Positions 1-9,000 of a stretch of 64,000 nucleotides of DNA are shown here, one piece after another (the stretch's first letter is position 1; each line of letters begins with the position of its first letter). The DNA lies in NCBI GenBank assembly GCA_035516795.1, contig DATIZX010000079.1:9084-73083 (forward strand), given 5' to 3'. Source of the DNA: Verrucomicrobiia bacterium. Lineage in GTDB: Bacteria > Verrucomicrobiota > Verrucomicrobiia > Palsa-1439. The position numbers were made by a program.

Positions 1-3000
1 GCGTGGAGGCCGGATTGAGGCCTTCATCAATGCGTACATAAAATGCATTTTCCGCCTTTGCCCCGAATAAAGCTCCGGCCCGCCAGAGCCGTGTCAGGAA
101 TTCCGTGATCGTGCGCTTGAGTTTGTTCCAAAGCGACAGGTTGTTCGGTTCAAAAACGGCCCAACGAATTCCGGCCTCGATGGATTGTTCTATGTAAATC
201 ATTAGCCGCCTGGTGCTTACATATTTCCAGTCGGTATCCTGCGTATCCAGTGTACGAGCCCCCCAAACCATCGCCTGCGCAGTTCCATGGAATATCCGCA
301 GGACGTTGACCCCTTCCAAATTCAGTGGGCCTTGCTGCCGGTCGCTAAGCGTCGTTTTAAGACCTACAACGCCCCATATGTCGACGTTCGCCGGTGCTTT
401 GTGGACACCACGATCATTGTCAACGCGCGCGTAGATGCCGGCGATTGCTCCGGAAGGTGGAATAGGTATCGGCGGCGCATTCGGTTTCTTGTTGGTCGGA
501 TCCGGAATCATCAACCACGGATAATAAAGCGCCGCGAATGCTCCATCTCTATCCTGGGTCAGTTGTTGCCTGTGCACGTCCACGCTGCCAGCATCGGAGG
601 GCGGCGCGCCCAATCTGGAATCGAGGACTGCAAAGCGGTCTTGACTCTGAACGCAATGCTCGATCATGGCGGCTTGGATCCCAATGTAACCAGAGTTTGC
701 GGCGGCATCCGGCACGCAGACAGTGTTGATCCCTTCCACGTTAAGTAATGAGTCCAAGGCAGTTTGGTAATCGGCGACGCCCAACTGAGCGGGGTTGTCT
801 TGTTGTCCATGAATGCTGATGGGCACCGGATTAGTCGGCTGGGCCAAAGGATCGGGGTAATTCAGGGCAATCGGAGGCACCAGAGGTGGCAGGACATTGA
901 CAGAGTCGGAATCGACGGCTGTAAACACGTAGCCGGGATGCAGCGGATTGAGAGAAAGATTATTGAATACCTCAGCGACCCCGGCTGGCGGCGTGACCGT
1001 AAGTTGGAACTCCTGGGAGATCAACACGGGCGGTTTCGCGGCGCCCAAATTATAGGAATGTGTCAGATTCGGTTGACCCGGGATTGTCACAAATCCCGCT
1101 TTGTCCACATCTTGAAGGACAGCATAATCGCTAACCGTCGTGCCGGGATTATTGGCGTCATCTCCTTGAATGAGGACAACACTGCCGGCTTCAAGTCCCG
1201 TCGTTTGCGCCATGCGAAATGTAATGGGTGTGTTTGGGTCCGATGATGGAATGATGTTGGCGATGACCAGCGTATCCCCATTGGCCAGTGTCAACGTCGT
1301 CGACAGGGTCAGTACGTTCCCCTGAATCTTTTGGATCGTTGCGCGCGCAACTTGATCCTTGGTGACGACGTCGCTCACATTAAACACATTGGGCTTGTCA
1401 ACTGACACTAGCACCCCGTTCACACCCTGCACGGTCGCTTTGCCCGTGGCCACGGCCACGCCGTTGACGCCTGTGAGATTGGCCGCTGCAACCGCCACCT
1501 GAATATTGTCGCCCGCAGTCCCGTCGGTCTGCGCTTGCAGGCGAAACACCGCTTCGCCTTTTTGATTATCGATCTCCCAGGTCGTGACCCGCGCCGTCCC
1601 TATGCGCAAGATATAGGCGTAGCTCCCATCGTTATCAAAAAAGCTCCGAACCCCATATGCCATGTAATAGCCCTGCATATAGGGCATATACGAGCCATCG
1701 GTTTGAAGCACCCCAAACTTCTGAAGGAAATCATCGAACGTCGTAATGAACGTGGGAACATTGATCGGGCCGGTGAGTGCCGGGCCGATGAAAGCCGCTG
1801 TGCTGGTTGTGACTCCGGCGATGACGCCGGGACTGGTAATTTCCTGAATATAGACTTTGGGTGTCTCGTACGTTGGCATGCTGACCTTCTCCTTCTGTTA
1901 CGTGAGTTGGATGTCGTAACTTCCTGTGGGCGATGGAACCTGGATCCCCGGATGGGCCTCATTGAACCCCTGGGCGCGGACCCGCAAGTTGTAAGTTCCG
2001 GCCACCAAGCCGCCAAAGGTAAAGCGACCATCCGTGGAGGTCGTGACGGTCCCTAGGGGGTGGAAGAGCGCATCTTGGATTTGCACCCAGGCATTGGTTA
2101 CCGGCTGACCGGCCGCTAAGACTGTGCCGCCGATCTGGATCCACGTCTCGATCGTGCCCGGCTTGCCGGATTGGCGGTACTCGGTAATGCGGGTCGTGAC
2201 CATGGGTCCGGTCACCTGCGTTGCCAGTACAACTGGCAACGTCACGATGAAATACACCATCGGTCTCCACGAATGCACGTTGCCCATGTCATTCCAGAAT
2301 TCAGCGAGTTTCGCGAACCCTTCGACGGGCAGAATCTGCGTCGGCAGTTCCGTGTCGGCGATCAGCGCGGGAAAATTCGCCGGCAGCGGGTTCGGACTGT
2401 ACACATTGCGCGGGACCAGCGGCTCGGCATTCATTAGCGCGCCGATGACCTTGTAGATGAGTGCGTGCTCGTCCACCGTCGGCTCGATGCTCGGGGTCAC
2501 TTTCGCCGGGCTCCAGGCGGTGATCAGGTAATGGCAATCCACCCGCCGCGGCGCGGGCGTCTCGGAAATCACGCCCTGCTGGAGATCTCGGGTCCGGTCA
2601 TTCGACCGGTACACCCGGTTTTCCCGCACGTCGGCCAGATGAACGTTGATCGCGTTCACCGGCTGCCCGCCGACCGACAGCGTGGAAAGATAGTTTTTCC
2701 AATCGTCATCCGGCGGCTGAAACCGCACCTGCGCCTCATCCGTAATCTCATCGATCCGCGACAGGAACAAGTGCCGCAGCAGATTGTCAAGATAATCGAG
2801 CATCGAGCGTCAGCTTAGGGACGGGTCACACGCCCTTTGGCGATTGGCCCCAAAGGAATCACCACCACAGACCGAGTGGCCTAAGGCGAACCGATTCTTC
2901 TCGCGGGCTGGGCAGTGACACTTCCGTCCAAATCGAATCTAAGAACTATTCCATTGTCCCAATACTCAGTATAAGTACCATTGGGTTCGAAGATGCGAAT

Positions 3001-6000: not shown

Positions 6001-9000
6001 TTTTCTGTAGCAAGTAGCTGATCTCGATGTTCGCGTATCGATCGTGTGAATCGCGTACCTCCGAGCGTTTACCCAGGATCGCCTCGCACTCGTCGAGGGC
6101 GAGAACGCTGTTGGAGTTCTCCGCGGCAGCGAAAACGGCACTCAGGTTCTTTTCCGTTTCCCCGATGTATTTGCTAACGATCTGCGAGAGATCGATCTTG
6201 TACAACTCCAAGCCAAGAGAATTGGCAATGACCTCGGCGGCCATGGTCTTGCCCGTGCCGGACGGCCCCGCGAAGAGCGCATTCACACCCTTGCCCATCG
6301 ACAACTTGCAATCAAAGCCCCATTGTTCGAGGACGCGATCGCGATGTTCGACGCGCTGACAAATTTCGCGGAGTTGCGCCAGAGAATCTTCGGGCAAGAC
6401 GATGTCCGACCAGGTGTGTTTCGGATCGATTTTGCGCGCGAGCCCATTGAGCTTCTGGTTGGATTGCAACCGACAGGCTGCGTAAAGGTCTTGCGTGCGA
6501 ATCACCCCATGGTCGTCCGCGCGGGAACGGGCCAAGTCCATGGCTGTTTGCACCGCATTACGCACCTGACCGGGGTTGAGCCGGAATTTGCCAGCCACAG
6601 CGGTTACCTCTGGTTTCGCATCGGGAGCGACAGACCCATTTAGATAGCGATTCCATAGTTCTTGGCGTGTTGACGCTCCCGGTGTCGCAATGGCCATGCT
6701 GAGAAAGGGGCGTTCGGCATCCAGCCCGCGTGGCCGCCACGGTGTTTCACCCAGCAGAAACCACTCCGTGTCTGGATGTTCAGCAGCTACGGCGAACAAC
6801 GAACGCAAAGCATCATTCGCGGAAACGTCGCCGCTCACAAGAGCGTCAAAATTATCAAGGCAAAGCGCTGCGCGCTGCAATGTTGCCTCGCGACATAACA
6901 ATCGCAGCACTTCTTCGAAGGAAAGTGTGTGACCGATCATCTTCGAGGTATTTGCACACAGCAGAGACAAGCCGAGGTCGCGGCAAACGCATTCAGCAAA
7001 TGTCCGTTTACCGGCGCCGGCCGGCGCGTGCAAGTGCATCACCGGTTTTCCATACCCAGCCGTGGCTGCTAACGCGTTTGACCTGACAAAATCGCTCGCC
7101 GCTTGTTTTGAGTGATCATCGAGAATCAAATCGTCCCAGCCCATTTGTGGAGCGGTCACATGCGCCAGGGACGCCAAGCGCAAGTCGATTTGATCTGACC
7201 CGAGGATGAATGCAGCCACGCGGTCATCCAGTTTCAGAAACTTGGACAGTAACGGGGATGGACTGTCCAGCGATGGCTCAGAGATCTCTATGAGATGGTG
7301 TTTCAACAGCGGAGCGCCGGCGGCAAACGATGACCTAGCTTCTACCTTTTCCTGAGGCGTCACGCAGAAAAGTTTCAATGCCAGATCAATCCCCGGCCTT
7401 TTCCGAGTAACATCGTCTTGCAGGAACGCATACACTTTGTCGTACTTGCGATCGATTTCGGGCGCTAAGCAGAGCAGCAAACATTGCTGTTCGAACCAGT
7501 TGAGGCCGAAAGCTGCGGCTACATCCGGCAACGCCATATATGACCCGTTCCTAAGGCTCGCCACTTGCCTCGCGCGAAGCTCCGCGGTCGAGTTTTTGAT
7601 GGTTTGGATCAGTATTTTCAACTCCGAACAGTTGGATTCCAGGCGATCACAGGCCGCCGGTGCCGTCAGGCTTTCGATCTCCTCTTCGGTCAGCACAAGT
7701 CCCTTCAAATGGTCCAATGGATGAGACGGCTGTTGACGGAAATCGAGAAAAGCCAACCGCAACCGCAAGTCCAGCGATCTCAGTTCAGCCATAATGTGGT
7801 CCAAGCTCGTCACGAATGGAACGGGGACGTCCTCGGCGATCATGGTTTTCCCCGTGACAGAGTCGATCTCAGTCGGTGCGATGTTCGAATTCAAATGGCG
7901 GAATATCCTTGGAGAAAGCCAGCGGCTGAATCTGAGCAGGCTCCGCACGCAACGGCAGAGCCTCCGTTACCCAACACTGACGAACTGCGCCCTACACTTC
8001 CTGCAAAACTAAATGCTTCCGATCGATCAATACGCGAGCCCGTTGGATCGTATCCAACAAAATGGCCACACGCCTGCCATCGTCCCACTCCTGTTCAACC
8101 CGAGCGATCGTCCCTTCCAAGGGGCCATGATCGACGCAAACCAAGTCTCCCGGGCGCAATGGGGTTGGCGCTAGTCTAGCGTAACCATCTGCAGTCACGA
8201 GCGCGCGAACTGATTGAATAATCTCTTCCGCCACCGGTGTCGGCGTGCCATGTGTGCCAACCACCCGTAGGACTCCGGGCGCGTAACGTACGCCATCCAG
8301 CTGGTTGGCGAGACAGAATCGCGCGAAAAAATAGCCCGTAAATAGCGGGCGAATCCTGCGTTGGGCTATATTGGCTCGTGGCCGCGTTTCCTTAATCTCA
8401 GGGAAGAAGACTTCCATACCCTGTGAACCTAGGCGCGAGGAAGCCATCCGTTCACGACCCGGCTTGGCCTGCACCGCGAACCAATGAGTTTCGAAACAGT
8501 AATTTAACATTCAAGCACGTGTCCGATACTATTTCCAGCTTGGCCGCCCCACTCCGCTCGGCAGTAGTAGGTCTTGCCATCTGTTCCTTGGACCGGTCGG
8601 AGTTTGTTTCTCAGAACCAACGAATCCACCGCCGTCTGTACCTCGGAAATCGACTGCTGCAAACGCTGTTCTAGGAACCACCACGCAATGATTCCATCCA
8701 AAGTATCCTTTGCACCAGGATTGGCATCAAGATGCCCGAGAATGGCTTCCTCAAGACTTGTATCAATGTTGGATTCCATAGTTGGCTCGCCTACAAGGCG
8801 CATTAGCAACCAGTGTGCCGACCGAAATTGCTGCGGTTTTTGTGGCCGCGGTCGTGCAAGGTGGATGAATTTGTCCTGCCACCACGATGCTCAGCCTGTG
8901 GAGACCCGTTCGTTTACAGGAGATTTGCCAAGGATGTTTTTGTCGCAACTTGCGCGGGCGATTATCCTAGATGATTCACGAGAAGGCGGCGGACGGCACC

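What the first reader, a model, noticed from the sequence alone, without database searches (positions are those of the whole stretch)
1..8823. Distal end of a contractile injection system (eCIS-type) operon: sheath, DUF4255 cap, DUF4157 protein and tandem AAA+ ATPase
Four consecutive minus-strand genes carry hallmarks of extracellular contractile injection systems (Afp/PVC/MAC-like). Going 5' to 3' they are a tandem AAA+ ATPase (Afp15-like), a DUF4157 HExxH protein, a DUF4255 terminator (Afp16-like) and a tail-sheath gene that leaves the window. The order ATPase-DUF4157-DUF4255-sheath differs from the canonical Afp/PVC order, where ATPase and terminator are last. The cluster sits in a genome whose other genes look like Verrucomicrobia/Planctomycetes/Acidobacteria, lineages where such systems are poorly characterised. 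The rest of the particle (tube, baseplate, spike, tape measure) is expected just beyond coordinate 1.
Basis: partly seen in the sequence, partly recalled or inferred. Interest (0 to 1): 0.85.

Follow-up and report, generated by a model that had tools for sequence, protein, structure and literature searches.

The report
Sigma-54-driven contractile injection system with deaminase toxin
The region is the start of a complete phage-tail-like injection machine operon in a Verrucomicrobiae genome; it is a real but fairly ordinary member of a known family, and its cargo is a DNA-deaminase-type toxin.

Summary
Four consecutive minus-strand genes encode a WHD+AAA ATPase (Afp15-like), a DUF4157/eCIS_core protein, a Pvc16_N (DUF4255) cap and a tail sheath cut by coordinate 1.

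An identical 109-kb public contig (a Verrucomicrobiae MAG) carries the rest downstream. These are tube, chaperone, DUF6760, CIS_tube, gpD/VgrG, PAAR, gp25, two Baseplate_J proteins, Tail_P2_I and five paralogous fibre-like genes.

Three points need correcting:
- **Position.** This is the promoter-proximal end of the operon, not the distal end.
- **Gene order.** ATPase-DUF4157-cap-sheath is the norm for this lineage: 36 of 40 related loci with cap next to sheath.
- **DUF4157 protein.** It is a modular cargo toxin whose C-terminus matches the ssDNA deaminase toxin SsdA, with the HAE and CxxC zinc site.

A sigma-54 -24/-12 promoter (8806-8820) and an enhancer-binding protein gene lie just upstream. 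The 91-aa protein belongs to a large family with no Pfam match (4,710 clusters). It heads CIS operons in 17 of 18 contexts checked, and 15 of those 18 have such a promoter.

Whether particles are released or fire from inside the cell cannot be decided. Verdict: new member of a known kind, moderate interest.

The parts
1..1879 (-). Tail sheath gene (Afp2/Cis2-like). The window holds the N-terminal 626 of 663 aa; the gene continues beyond coordinate 1.
   Evidence: Pfam Phage_sheath_1 and Phage_sheath_1C. The full gene is read in L001 10925-12916. The best PDB matches are the Streptomyces CIS sheath 8bky (E=2.4e-78) and the Halogeometricum CIS sheath 9ezm (E=4.6e-72), followed by tCIS, AlgoCIS, PVC and AFP.
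1898..2803 (-). Cap / tube terminator (Afp16/Pvc16-like, 301 aa) with a C-terminal CarboxypepD_reg (prealbumin-like) domain.
   Evidence: Pfam Pvc16_N at 5.4e-21 over aa 6-203 and CarboxypepD_reg at 2.3e-12 over aa 223-300. PDB matches are 9gts_0A, a Pvc16_N protein of the Streptomyces CIS (2.5e-7), and Afp16 (3.3e-3).
2881..5607 (-). Cargo toxin, 908 aa. Its parts are a low-complexity Ser/Pro/Ala-rich N-terminus (aa 1-81; 5607..5365); DUF4157/eCIS_core (aa 82-158; 5364..5134; HELAH at 5169..5155); a conserved middle region (about aa 210-560; 4980..3928); a disorder-prone linker; and an SsdA-like deaminase domain (aa 745-878; 3375..2974; HAE at 3129..3121; CxxC at 3078..3067).
   Evidence: Pfam eCIS_core (6.7e-29) and SsdA_C (1e-7, 32.9 bits against a cutoff of 27). 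phmmer against SsdA, PDB 7jtu, gives E=3.7e-11 over residues 17-157 of 165, with HAE and CxxC aligned. Relatives share only the DUF4157 part and carry many different C-termini. The nearest relative, P0122, shares aa 36-617 at 40% identity but has a different C-terminus.
5576..7843 (-). Afp15/Pvc15-like ATPase, 755 aa: an N-terminal winged-helix domain, a degenerate AAA D1 and a canonical AAA+ D2. Its 3' end overlaps the toxin gene by 32 nt.
   Evidence: Pfam WHD (1.2e-51) and AAA (1.6e-31, two stretches). The D1 region alone matches Rix7 D1 at 2e-5. D2 matches p97/Cdc48 D2 at about 1e-32.
7992..8510 (-). NusG paralogue, 172 aa (NGN domain plus a KOW-like C-terminus). It is a putative operon-specific antiterminator. 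Its start overlaps the stop of the 91-aa gene.
   Evidence: Pfam NusG at 3.6e-16. NCBIfam UpxY (3.9e-19), RfaH (3.4e-18) and LoaP (1.1e-10) all score below their cutoffs. No homologue was found in 83 related loci, even at E<10.
8504..8779 (-). First gene of the operon, a 91-aa protein of an unnamed family (motif P-x-A-x-D-T-x-x-G-I-x-x-W-W-L). Its function is unknown.
8806..8820 (-). Sigma-54-type -24/-12 promoter, CGGCACactggTTGC, ending 26 nt before the ATG of the 91-aa gene.
   Evidence: It is a one-mismatch match to TGGCAC-N5-TTGC, one of only 7 such matches (0-1 mismatch) in the 64-kb window on both strands. The same element sits upstream of the homologous gene in 14 of the 17 other loci. 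The background rate is 0.0036 per 100 nt. No sigma-70-like site lies on this strand in 1..11700.
8976..10385 (-). Sigma-54 enhancer-binding protein, 469 aa. No receiver domain was detected in its N-terminal 150 aa.
   Evidence: Pfam Sigma54_activat (3.5e-64) and AAA_lid_14 (4.1e-26). An EBP gene sits in the same position in at least 12 related loci: L008, L011, L022, L037, L041, L044, L056, L060, L088, L089, L092 and L094.

Best explanation
Window 1..10385 holds the regulatory and promoter-proximal part of a complete contractile injection system (CIS) operon of the Afp/PVC-like superfamily. The operon has about 25 genes over 26.6 kb. Its host is an uncultured Verrucomicrobiae bacterium.

Proposed mechanism:
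1. The enhancer-binding protein (8976..10385) activates sigma-54 RNA polymerase at the -24/-12 promoter (8806..8820). This step is inferred from the conserved motif and the adjacent gene.
2. One long transcript starts with the 91-aa gene and the NusG paralogue. The paralogue probably keeps RNA polymerase processive over the long operon. This is inferred by analogy with RfaH/AnfA1-type control of Afp.
3. Cap, sheath, tube, chaperone, tube initiator, gpD/VgrG spike, PAAR tip, gp25, two Baseplate_J proteins, a Tail_P2_I adaptor and five paralogous fibre-like proteins build a phage-tail-like particle. The gene content is shown; assembly is inferred.
4. The AAA+ ATPase recognises the low-complexity N-terminus of the 908-aa DUF4157 protein and loads that protein into the tube lumen. 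This is inferred from Alg15/Cgo and Pvc15 work.
5. On contraction the toxin is expelled into a target cell. There its SsdA-like domain deaminates cytosines in DNA. The homology and the conserved zinc-site residues are shown; activity and substrate are inferred.

Release as a free extracellular particle is the more likely mode but is not established.
For: **Core gene set.** All eight core eCIS families of Chen et al. 2019 (PMC6899500) are present in one co-oriented cluster:
- tube Phage_T4_gp19, 2.1e-45
- sheath
- CIS_tube, 1.2e-34
- Phage_base_V 1.6e-22, plus a gpD/VgrG-related protein
- gp25, 1.9e-28
- Baseplate_J / TIGR02243, 209 bits against a cutoff of 155.8
- WHD+AAA ATPase
- Pvc16_N cap

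PAAR (2.7e-23), DUF6760 and a tail assembly chaperone (phrog_508) are present as well.

**Synteny.** The order is conserved in dozens of loci from many phyla and gene for gene in the nearest relative, L088/L091.

**Toxin.** [quoted passage not shown] Their N-terminal region is required for loading, which is mediated by Alg15 (bioRxiv 10.64898/2026.05.27.728243). DUF4157-deaminase fusions are validated eCIS toxins (EAT11; PMC8213781).

**Regulation.**

**Not a prophage or classical T6SS.** No phage head, terminase, portal or integrase gene and no T6SS membrane-complex gene appears in the annotated flanks. The remaining window genes that were scanned are ordinary chromosomal genes. GC content is uniform across the window.
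Against: - No expression, particle or activity data exist; the source is a metagenome-assembled genome.
- The mode of action is open. The sheath's best solved relatives are the cytoplasmic Streptomyces CIS and the membrane-anchored haloarchaeal CIS (PMC10066040, PMC11566945).
- No immunity gene follows the deaminase gene; only 77 nt separate it from the cap gene.
- Tyr334, the key ssDNA-contacting residue of SsdA (PMC12494967), aligns with Arg here. The substrate is therefore uncertain.
- The AF2 model of the toxin domain was too poor to confirm the fold (pLDDT 56.5).
- The tape-measure gene is not identified by homology; the 225-aa protein in the expected position has no family match.
- The NusG paralogue is below the cutoff of every NCBIfam subfamily, and no E. 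coli-type ops element is present in the leader.
- An rpoN gene was not looked for.
Confidence: 0.85

Rival explanations
1. The same gene set builds a CIS that is never released. It fires from inside the producer, either free in the cytoplasm to cause regulated cell death (as in Streptomyces CIS-Sc) or anchored to the cytoplasmic membrane for contact-dependent killing (as in the Halogeometricum 'archaeal T6SS').
For: The two best solved relatives of the sheath are exactly these systems: 8bky at 2.4e-78 and 9ezm at 4.6e-72, against 1e-41 to 1e-43 for AlgoCIS, PVC and AFP. The haloarchaeal system also secretes DUF4157 toxins (PMC11566945). A small multi-pass membrane protein ends the operon here (139 aa, DUF1360-like), and a non-homologous one ends it in the nearest relative (151 aa). 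Either could be an anchor.
Against: The locus has a PAAR tip, a Tail_P2_I adaptor and five paralogous fibre-like proteins downstream of the baseplate, one with an Ig-like C-terminus. That layout is described for fibre-bearing eCIS with Tail_P2_I baseplates (PMC12923769). CIS-Sc lacks conventional fibres, and its effectors carry a transmembrane segment (PMC10066040). No core protein here has a convincing transmembrane segment. No homologue of CisA or Hbor_38620 was identified, but neither was searched for specifically.
Confidence: 0.3
2. The cluster is the tail module of a defective myovirus-type prophage or an R-type tailocin, not a protein-injecting CIS.
For: Sheath, tube, gp25, Baseplate_J, Tail_P2_I and the tail assembly chaperone are all phage-derived families.
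Against: The Afp15-like WHD+AAA ATPase, the Pvc16_N cap, the eCIS_core (DUF4157) toxin and CIS_tube are markers of CIS and not of phage tails or pyocins (PMC6899500, PMC8213781). The R-pyocin sheath is the weakest hit in PDB, at 2.3e-9. No capsid, portal, terminase, integrase or lysis-cassette gene is annotated within about 20 kb on the downstream side, and none was found among the window genes scanned on the upstream side.
Confidence: 0.03
3. The 908-aa DUF4157 protein is not delivered cargo. It would be an assembly or maturation metallopeptidase of the particle, and its deaminase-like end would be inactive or act on a producer-cell substrate.
For: The HExxH motif is intact. DUF4157 is so widespread in CIS loci that Pfam calls it 'eCIS core domain', and its role is unresolved (PMC8213781, PMC11297309). 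No immunity gene is adjacent. The gene lies among structural genes, not at the 3' end where eCIS toxins usually lie.
Against: In AlgoCIS, DUF4157 is dispensable for loading, and the DUF4157 proteins are themselves the cargo in the tube lumen (PMC8894135; bioRxiv 10.64898/2026.05.27.728243). The catalytic His, Glu and two Cys residues of SsdA are all conserved. The C-terminus is swapped between otherwise homologous proteins of sister loci, which is the signature of polymorphic toxins. In related loci, 1-3 such genes with different C-termini occupy the same slot.
Confidence: 0.1

Closest known systems
Afp / PVC (Serratia antifeeding prophage, Photorhabdus virulence cassettes; eCIS subtype Ia)
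   Same: The same eight core families are present: tube, sheath, Afp7-like tube initiator, VgrG-like spike, gp25, Baseplate_J, Afp15-like ATPase and Afp16-like cap. The cargo has a disordered N-terminal loading region. An NusG/RfaH-type regulator is associated with the operon (PMC6899500, PMC8213781).
   Different: In Afp/PVC the ATPase and cap are the last structural genes and the toxins follow the operon; here they come first. Sheath similarity is remote (PVC 1e-42, AFP 6e-41, C-terminal part only). Afp/PVC have three sheath paralogues where this locus has one large 663-aa sheath. No Afp13-type adenovirus-like fibre and no recognisable Afp14 tape measure is present. This locus has a sigma-54 promoter.
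Streptomyces coelicolor CIS-Sc (dbeCIS clade IId; PDB 8bky, 9gts)
   Same: It is the closest solved sheath (2.4e-78) and cap (2.5e-7).
   Different: CIS-Sc is cytoplasmic, mediates cell death, lacks conventional fibres, and has membrane-spanning effectors plus the membrane protein CisA (PMC10066040; bioRxiv 10.1101/2024.06.25.600559). Streptomyces-type loci in my sample have a shorter sheath ORF (about 390-410 codons, stop to stop), a fused gpD-VgrG protein, no PAAR, and a DUF4157 protein in the tape-measure position. In all four respects this locus differs.
AlgoCIS of Algoriphagus machipongonensis (clade Ib) and its cargos Cgo1/Cgo2
   Same: The cargo architecture is the same: disordered N-terminus, DUF4157 and a variable C-terminal effector. 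Loading into the tube lumen is mediated by the AAA+ ATPase (PMC8894135; bioRxiv 10.64898/2026.05.27.728243).
   Different: AlgoCIS has a separate cap adaptor (Alg16B) and a short 197-aa cap. Here there is a single 301-aa cap with a CarboxypepD_reg extension. The sheath is only distantly related (2.6e-43). The effector domains differ.
SsdA of Pseudomonas syringae (bacterial deaminase toxin family 2, T6SS effector; PDB 7jtu)
   Same: The toxin domain aligns over essentially its whole length at E=3.7e-11. The His-Ala-Glu and Cys-x-x-Cys zinc-site residues are conserved, and Pfam SsdA_C scores above its cutoff.
   Different: Here the domain is attached to a CIS loading module (DUF4157), whereas SsdA is described as a T6SS effector. 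No SsdAI-like immunity gene is adjacent. The ssDNA-contacting Tyr334 is replaced by Arg. Activity is untested.
EAT11 (Amycolatopsis nigrescens), a validated eCIS-associated toxin
   Same: It has N-terminal DUF4157 plus a C-terminal deaminase, and it is toxic to E. coli and yeast (PMC8213781, Table 1).
   Different: It comes from a different phylum. Whether its deaminase belongs to the same family was not compared here.
VasH/sigma-54 control of type VI secretion
   Same: An enhancer-binding protein gene sits next to the cluster, and a -24/-12 promoter drives genes of a contractile secretion machine (PMC3439928).
   Different: That is the classical T6SS. I found no paper linking sigma-54 to Afp/PVC-type CIS. 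The small 91-aa first gene has no counterpart that I know of.

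Membership tests
Afp/PVC-like CIS superfamily ('eCIS' as defined genomically by Chen et al. 2019, PMC6899500) | Tube protein (Afp1/5; Phage_T4_gp19) | tested here: met
   L001 12934-13377, Pfam 2.1e-45. The gene lies just outside the window on the identical contig.
Afp/PVC-like CIS superfamily ('eCIS' as defined genomically by Chen et al. 2019, PMC6899500) | Sheath (Afp2/3/4) | tested here: met
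   Window 1..1879 and L001 10925-12916.
Afp/PVC-like CIS superfamily ('eCIS' as defined genomically by Chen et al. 2019, PMC6899500) | Afp7-like tube initiator, VgrG-like spike (Afp8) and gp25 (Afp9) | tested here: met
   CIS_tube 1.2e-34; Phage_base_V 1.6e-22 plus VgrG_rel/Phage_GPD on the adjacent 401-aa protein; GPW_gp25 1.9e-28.
Afp/PVC-like CIS superfamily ('eCIS' as defined genomically by Chen et al. 2019, PMC6899500) | Baseplate_J protein (Afp11) | tested here: met
   P0001 (1236 aa) hits TIGR02243 at 209 bits against a cutoff of 155.8, and Baseplate_J. A second 800-aa Baseplate_J protein follows.
Afp/PVC-like CIS superfamily ('eCIS' as defined genomically by Chen et al. 2019, PMC6899500) | Afp15-like AAA+ ATPase and Afp16-like cap (absent from phage tails and pyocins) | tested here: met
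   WHD+AAA protein at window 5576..7843; Pvc16_N protein at window 1898..2803.
Afp/PVC-like CIS superfamily ('eCIS' as defined genomically by Chen et al. 2019, PMC6899500) | No T6SS membrane complex (TssJLM) or ClpV, and no phage head genes, in the cluster | tested here: met
   None appears among the annotated genes of L001 and L006, nor among the window genes scanned. About 13 kb at the far end of the contig was not seen.
Extracellular mode of action (true eCIS) | Particles released from the producer that bind targets through fibres | not testable with these tools
   Only indirect evidence is available. Five fibre-like paralogues plus Tail_P2_I lie downstream of the baseplate. Against this, the sheath's nearest solved relatives are non-extracellular CIS.
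DUF4157-type CIS cargo / polymorphic toxin | N-terminal disordered loading region, then DUF4157 with HExxH, then a variable C-terminal effector | tested here: met
   The N-terminal 82 aa are 18% Ser, 10% Pro and 10% Ala. This is a composition proxy only; no disorder predictor was run. eCIS_core spans aa 82-158 with HELAH. Homologues share only this part and carry more than 15 different C-terminal Pfam domains. The C-terminus is swapped relative to P0122.
DUF4157-type CIS cargo / polymorphic toxin | Physically loaded into the tube lumen by the ATPase | not testable with these tools
   This is an analogy to AlgoCIS (PMC8894135; bioRxiv 10.64898/2026.05.27.728243).
SsdA-type deaminase toxins (BaDTF2) | Sequence membership (Pfam SsdA_C; similarity to SsdA over the toxin domain) | tested here: met
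   SsdA_C scores 32.9 bits against a cutoff of 27. phmmer against 7jtu_A gives 3.7e-11 over chain residues 17-157 of 165.
SsdA-type deaminase toxins (BaDTF2) | Zinc-site and catalytic residues (His346, Glu348 and two Cys in SsdA) | tested here: met
   H827, E829, C844 and C847 align with them (residue roles from PMC12494967).
SsdA-type deaminase toxins (BaDTF2) | ssDNA-binding Tyr334 | tested here: not met
   It aligns with Arg in the HMMER alignment. That loop is poorly conserved, so the alignment there is uncertain.
SsdA-type deaminase toxins (BaDTF2) | Deaminase fold | tested here: inconclusive
   The AF2 model built from a 3-sequence alignment has mean pLDDT 56.5. That is too low for a fold search.
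SsdA-type deaminase toxins (BaDTF2) | Cognate immunity gene directly downstream | tested here: not met
   The next gene, 77 nt downstream, is the cap, and no ORF lies between them. Geller et al. also report that many eCIS toxins lack an immunity gene (PMC8213781).
Sigma-54-dependent promoter | GG at -24 and GC at -12 with canonical spacing, in an intergenic region upstream of the operon | tested here: met
   CGGCACactggTTGC at 8806-8820(-), ending 26 nt before the ATG. It is conserved in 15 of 18 homologous contexts.
Sigma-54-dependent promoter | Cognate enhancer-binding protein, and rpoN in the genome | tested here: inconclusive
   The EBP gene is adjacent (Sigma54_activat 3.5e-64). rpoN was not searched for. 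A second, perfect -24/-12 site at 32655-32669(+) suggests the organism uses sigma-54.
RfaH / UpxY / LoaP specialised NusG paralogues | Score above the family's curated cutoff | tested here: not met
   UpxY scores 69.2 against 100, RfaH 66.1 against 144.5, LoaP 41.9 against 125 and NusG 28.9 against 135.7. The Pfam NGN domain is met (59.9 against 22.2). It is therefore a NusG paralogue of no named subfamily.
RfaH / UpxY / LoaP specialised NusG paralogues | ops-type recruitment element in the operon leader | tested here: not met
   There is no match to GGCGGTAGnnTG with 1 mismatch or fewer on the minus strand in 7843..8976. Other subfamilies use other, poorly defined elements.

The most novel reading that the evidence does not exclude
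The 91-aa first gene defines a large protein family (about 4,700 clusters at 50% identity) with no Pfam match. I found no description of it in the literature I searched. Together with an adjacent enhancer-binding protein gene and a conserved -24/-12 promoter, it would form a dedicated sigma-54 control module for Afp/PVC-type contractile injection systems of several different architectures. If so, a sizeable fraction of environmental CIS are switched on by a signal-dependent sigma-54 activator. The small protein would be a new CIS-specific regulator or assembly factor, and this locus has additionally recruited its own NusG paralogue.
Probability: 0.45. Interest if true: 0.55.

Novelty: new member of a known kind. 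Interest (0 to 1): 0.35.

Why it matters
The main object adds one more complete CIS to the thousands already catalogued. It comes from Verrucomicrobiae, a class that was not found by name in the four CIS survey papers searched for it.

Three things give it some practical value:
- **A divergent deaminase.** It supplies a relative of SsdA, an enzyme family being engineered into compact base editors. Here the domain is already fused to a natural CIS loading module.
- **A clean toxin-cassette exchange.** Sister loci show the exchange on a conserved 600-aa carrier, which is useful for designing re-loadable CIS.
- **A signal-responsive switch.** The conserved sigma-54 promoter, the enhancer-binding protein and the unnamed 91-aa family point to a switch for CIS expression. 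Regulation is one of the least understood aspects of these systems and is a practical obstacle to expressing them in the laboratory.

Tried and rejected
2. **Fold confirmation of the deaminase domain.** Only two homologues were available for the alignment. The model's pLDDT was 56.5, so no fold search was run.
3. **E. coli-type ops element for the NusG paralogue.** None was found in the leader, and window-wide counts are near chance.
4. **NusG paralogues in related CIS loci.** None was found in 83 loci. It is therefore not a conserved feature of the lineage.
5. **SsdA domain and toxin middle region in the 80 related genome loci.** The SsdA domain gave no hits and the middle region gave one (L027).
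6. **Sigma-70 promoters and intrinsic terminators in 1..11700.** No promoter-like site lies on the minus strand, and terminator-like sites occur at chance level. This was uninformative.
7. **Pfam and PHROG searches of the five fibre-like paralogues, the 225-aa protein and the 194-aa protein.** No family was found. They could not be submitted for structure prediction because they lie outside the window.
8. **Literature search for sigma-54 control of Afp/PVC-type CIS.** Only T6SS papers were found. The library lacks most subscription journals, so absence is weak evidence.
9. **Context of the Ralstonia solanacearum member (P0285).** It is not on record.
10. **Prophage and classical T6SS readings.** Both were rejected on gene content (see rival explanations).

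Full report

Yes. The minus strand of window 1..8823 carries a run of tightly spaced or overlapping genes. Pfam assigns each of the four named genes the predicted domain, above the curated cutoff.

| Gene | Window coordinates | Pfam result |
|---|---|---|
| Sheath (626 of 663 codons in the window) | 1..1879 | Phage_sheath_1 + Phage_sheath_1C |
| Cap | 1898..2803 | Pvc16_N (the renamed DUF4255) + C-terminal CarboxypepD_reg |
| DUF4157 protein | 2881..5607 | eCIS_core (the renamed DUF4157), with HELAH |
| ATPase | 5576..7843 | WHD + AAA |

The ATPase is 'tandem' in the sense of type-II AAA+ proteins. D2 has canonical Walker A and B motifs. D1 has degenerate motifs (AGAGKR, LCLDN) but on its own still matches the D1 ring of Rix7.

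**2. The rest of the machine**

The cap protein is encoded on a 109-kb ENA contig (ERZ27256514:k141_2016492). That contig is 100% identical to window 1..12803 and extends beyond coordinate 1. A second step, through the baseplate protein P0001, extended the view by another 10 kb. NCBI names the identical proteins 'MAG TPA ... Verrucomicrobiae bacterium'.

Downstream of the sheath lie, in order:
- tube (Phage_T4_gp19)
- a tail assembly chaperone-like 121-aa protein (phrog_508)
- DUF6760
- a 225-aa protein with no family match, in the tape-measure position
- CIS_tube
- a gpD/VgrG-related hub
- a Phage_base_V spike
- PAAR
- gp25
- two Baseplate_J proteins (1236 and 800 aa)
- a Tail_P2_I-like protein flanked by five paralogues that share an N-terminal domain of about 90 aa (A1)
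- a small membrane protein

All eight core families that define eCIS-type loci (PMC6899500) are present. No T6SS membrane-complex gene and no phage head gene is annotated in the flanks. The rest of the window that was scanned encodes glycoside hydrolases, efflux pumps, a two-component kinase and PKD proteins. GC content is even across the window.

**3. What needs correcting**

(a) *Position.* The window holds the start of the operon, not its end.

(b) *Gene order.* A scan of 185,579 species-representative genomes with the sheath found 550 relatives. The 80 best loci come from Acidobacteriota, Chloroflexota, Gemmatimonadota, Pseudomonadota, Nitrospirota, Planctomycetota, Cyanobacteriota, Actinomycetota and a haloarchaeon. 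I mapped this locus's proteins onto their ORFs.
- Of 59 loci with at least 8 kb upstream of the sheath, 40 have the cap directly upstream.
- 36 also have the ATPase upstream on the same strand.
- 23 have one to three DUF4157 genes upstream of the sheath; in the locus maps these lie mostly between the ATPase and the cap.
- The downstream order is equally conserved.

(c) *Mode of action.* The sheath's best solved relatives are the Streptomyces coelicolor CIS (2.4e-78) and the Halogeometricum CIS (4.6e-72). AlgoCIS, PVC and AFP score about 1e-41 to 1e-43. The first is cytoplasmic and the second is membrane-anchored. 'Extracellular' therefore cannot be read off the core genes.

In favour of release are PAAR, Tail_P2_I and the five fibre-like paralogues, which are conserved one-to-one in the nearest relative. 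They resemble the multi-fibre Tail_P2_I baseplates described for eBAP3/5 fibres (PMC12923769). I could not test membership of those families.

**4. The DUF4157 protein is a cargo toxin**

Its C-terminal 135 residues hit Pfam SsdA_C. They align over nearly the whole toxin domain of SsdA (PDB 7jtu, E=3.7e-11). His-Ala-Glu and Cys-x-x-Cys are in register with the zinc-binding and catalytic residues described for SsdA (PMC12494967). SsdA is a single-strand DNA cytosine deaminase delivered by a T6SS (PMC7901873).

Among 363 database relatives, nearly all share only the DUF4157 segment (about 10-15% of the query). They carry many different C-terminal domains, including peptidases, nucleases, RNase-like toxins and OmpA. 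Only two others combine DUF4157 with SsdA_C.

The nearest CIS locus encodes a protein that is 40% identical over residues 36-617 but has an unrelated C-terminus. This is the pattern of a polymorphic toxin on a conserved carrier.

The layout (Ser/Pro-rich N-terminus, DUF4157, linker, effector) matches Cgo1/Cgo2 of AlgoCIS. Those proteins sit in the tube lumen. Their disordered N-terminus is the loading signal, and loading is mediated by the AAA+ ATPase (PMC8894135; bioRxiv 10.64898/2026.05.27.728243). A DUF4157-deaminase fusion (EAT11) is a validated eCIS toxin (PMC8213781).

Caveats:
- No immunity gene is adjacent.
- SsdA's DNA-contacting Tyr334 is not conserved.
- The AF2 model of the domain was too poor to use.

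**5. Regulation, the part that was overlooked**

Upstream of the ATPase lie a NusG paralogue (7992..8510) and a 91-aa gene (8504..8779) whose stop overlaps the NusG start. Beyond a 196-bp gap lies a sigma-54 enhancer-binding protein gene (8976..10385).

In the gap, ending 26 nt before the 91-aa ATG, is CGGCACactggTTGC. This is a one-mismatch match to the sigma-54 -24/-12 consensus, one of only seven matches with 0-1 mismatch in the whole window.

A profile of the 91-aa protein finds it in 12 of the 80 related loci, always at the head of the CIS genes. It also occurs in CIS loci of other gene orders: L089 in Lysobacter, L090, L092 and L093. In one locus (L094) it sits next to an EBP gene but with no recognisable CIS genes.

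Of the 18 contexts, 17 are CIS operon heads. 15 have a -24/-12 motif with intact GG and GC within about 50 nt upstream of the start codon. 13 of these have at most one mismatch and two have two. The background rate for motifs with at most one mismatch is 0.0036 per 100 nt.

The family has 4,710 cluster representatives at E<=1e-3. It has no Pfam, NCBIfam or PHROG model. Its predicted fold has no clear relative in PDB.

The nearest relative of this locus has the EBP gene and a -24/-12 site but a different small first gene (DUF3467). The NusG paralogue is absent from all 83 related loci, so it is a local addition. RfaH-type control is known for Afp (PMC8213781, Fig. 7).

I found no paper connecting sigma-54 with Afp/PVC-type CIS. 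It is well known for T6SS.

**6. Verdict**

The object is a new member of a known and heavily catalogued kind. Its 'unusual' order is ordinary for its lineage. The added value lies in three things: identifying the cargo as an SsdA-like deaminase on a swappable carrier, showing that the mode of action is open, and the conserved sigma-54 / 91-aa leader module, which deserves follow-up. Interest is 0.35.

Noticed in passing
window 8504..8779 (-), and loci L008, L011, L019, L022, L024, L031, L037, L044, L051, L054, L056, L060, L089, L090, L092, L093, L094: A family of 75-130-aa proteins with no Pfam match (invariant A-x-D...G...WW) forms the first gene of CIS operons of at least three different gene orders. 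It has 4,710 cluster representatives. No Pfam, NCBIfam or PHROG model matches it, and its predicted fold has no clear PDB relative.
   Followed up: yes
window 8806..8820 (-), and the equivalent positions in related loci: A sigma-54 -24/-12 promoter is conserved upstream of the 91-aa family gene in 15 of 18 contexts, often with an enhancer-binding protein gene next to it. I found no published link between sigma-54 and Afp/PVC-type CIS.
   Followed up: yes
window 7992..8510 (-): A NusG paralogue is inserted between the 91-aa gene and the ATPase. It is below the cutoffs of the UpxY, RfaH and LoaP families. It is absent from all 83 related CIS loci, and no ops-like element is present.
   Followed up: partly
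window 10441..10800 (-): A 119-codon ORF holds only the first 60 or so residues of an SpvB domain (the Tc-toxin/Rhs N-terminal region). It ends 55 nt before the enhancer-binding protein gene. It looks like a truncated remnant of a large toxin gene at the edge of the CIS island.
   Followed up: no
window 3928..4980 (-), aa about 210-560 of the toxin: The middle region of the toxin is conserved at about 40% identity with the toxin of the sister locus (P0122) and with one Blastocatellia locus (L027), although the C-terminal toxin domains differ. It may be a folded carrier or translocation domain of unknown function.
   Followed up: partly
L006 16113..22211 (beyond window coordinate 1): Five paralogous genes (321, 290, 353, 219 and 198 aa) share an N-terminal domain of about 90 aa (R..LH.WGI..G..V...PGYA.D..G.EI). 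They surround a Tail_P2_I-like gene and are conserved one-to-one in the sister locus L091. They are probably multiple fibres or receptor-binding proteins on one baseplate. No Pfam or PHROG family matches.
   Followed up: partly
L006 20318..21574 versus L091 20328..21485: The 219-aa and 194-aa genes of this locus correspond to a single 385-aa gene (with a CLIPPER domain) in the sister locus. This is either a gene split here or a fusion there.
   Followed up: no
L001 17190..17507 (= L006 9256..9573): The PAAR gene (Pfam 2.7e-23) was not called on the ENA contig, although it was called on the Logan copy (L007). It is an annotation gap in the public record.
   Followed up: yes
L006 22227..22646 and L091 22186..22641: Both this operon and its sister end with a small multi-pass membrane protein. 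Here it is 139 aa and DUF1360-like; there it is 151 aa. The two are not homologous to each other. Each could be a holin-like release factor or a membrane anchor.
   Followed up: no
window 32655..32669 (+): A perfect sigma-54 consensus, TGGCACGAGCTTTGC, ends 13 nt before the ATG of an asparagine-synthase-like gene (32683..33849), just after a histidine kinase gene (31096..32550). This is a second likely sigma-54 promoter in the window.
   Followed up: no
window 8976..10385 (-), aa 1-150: The enhancer-binding protein has no detectable receiver or other sensory domain in its N-terminal 150 residues. The equivalent protein of the sister locus (L088) has a Response_reg domain. By eye the region looks like a receiver that has lost the phospho-acceptor Asp (DLVLVCLP).
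   Followed up: no
window 4335..4346 (+): There is a perfect match to the E. coli ops element, GGCGGTAGTTTG, but it lies on the antisense strand inside the toxin gene. It is most likely chance.
   Followed up: no
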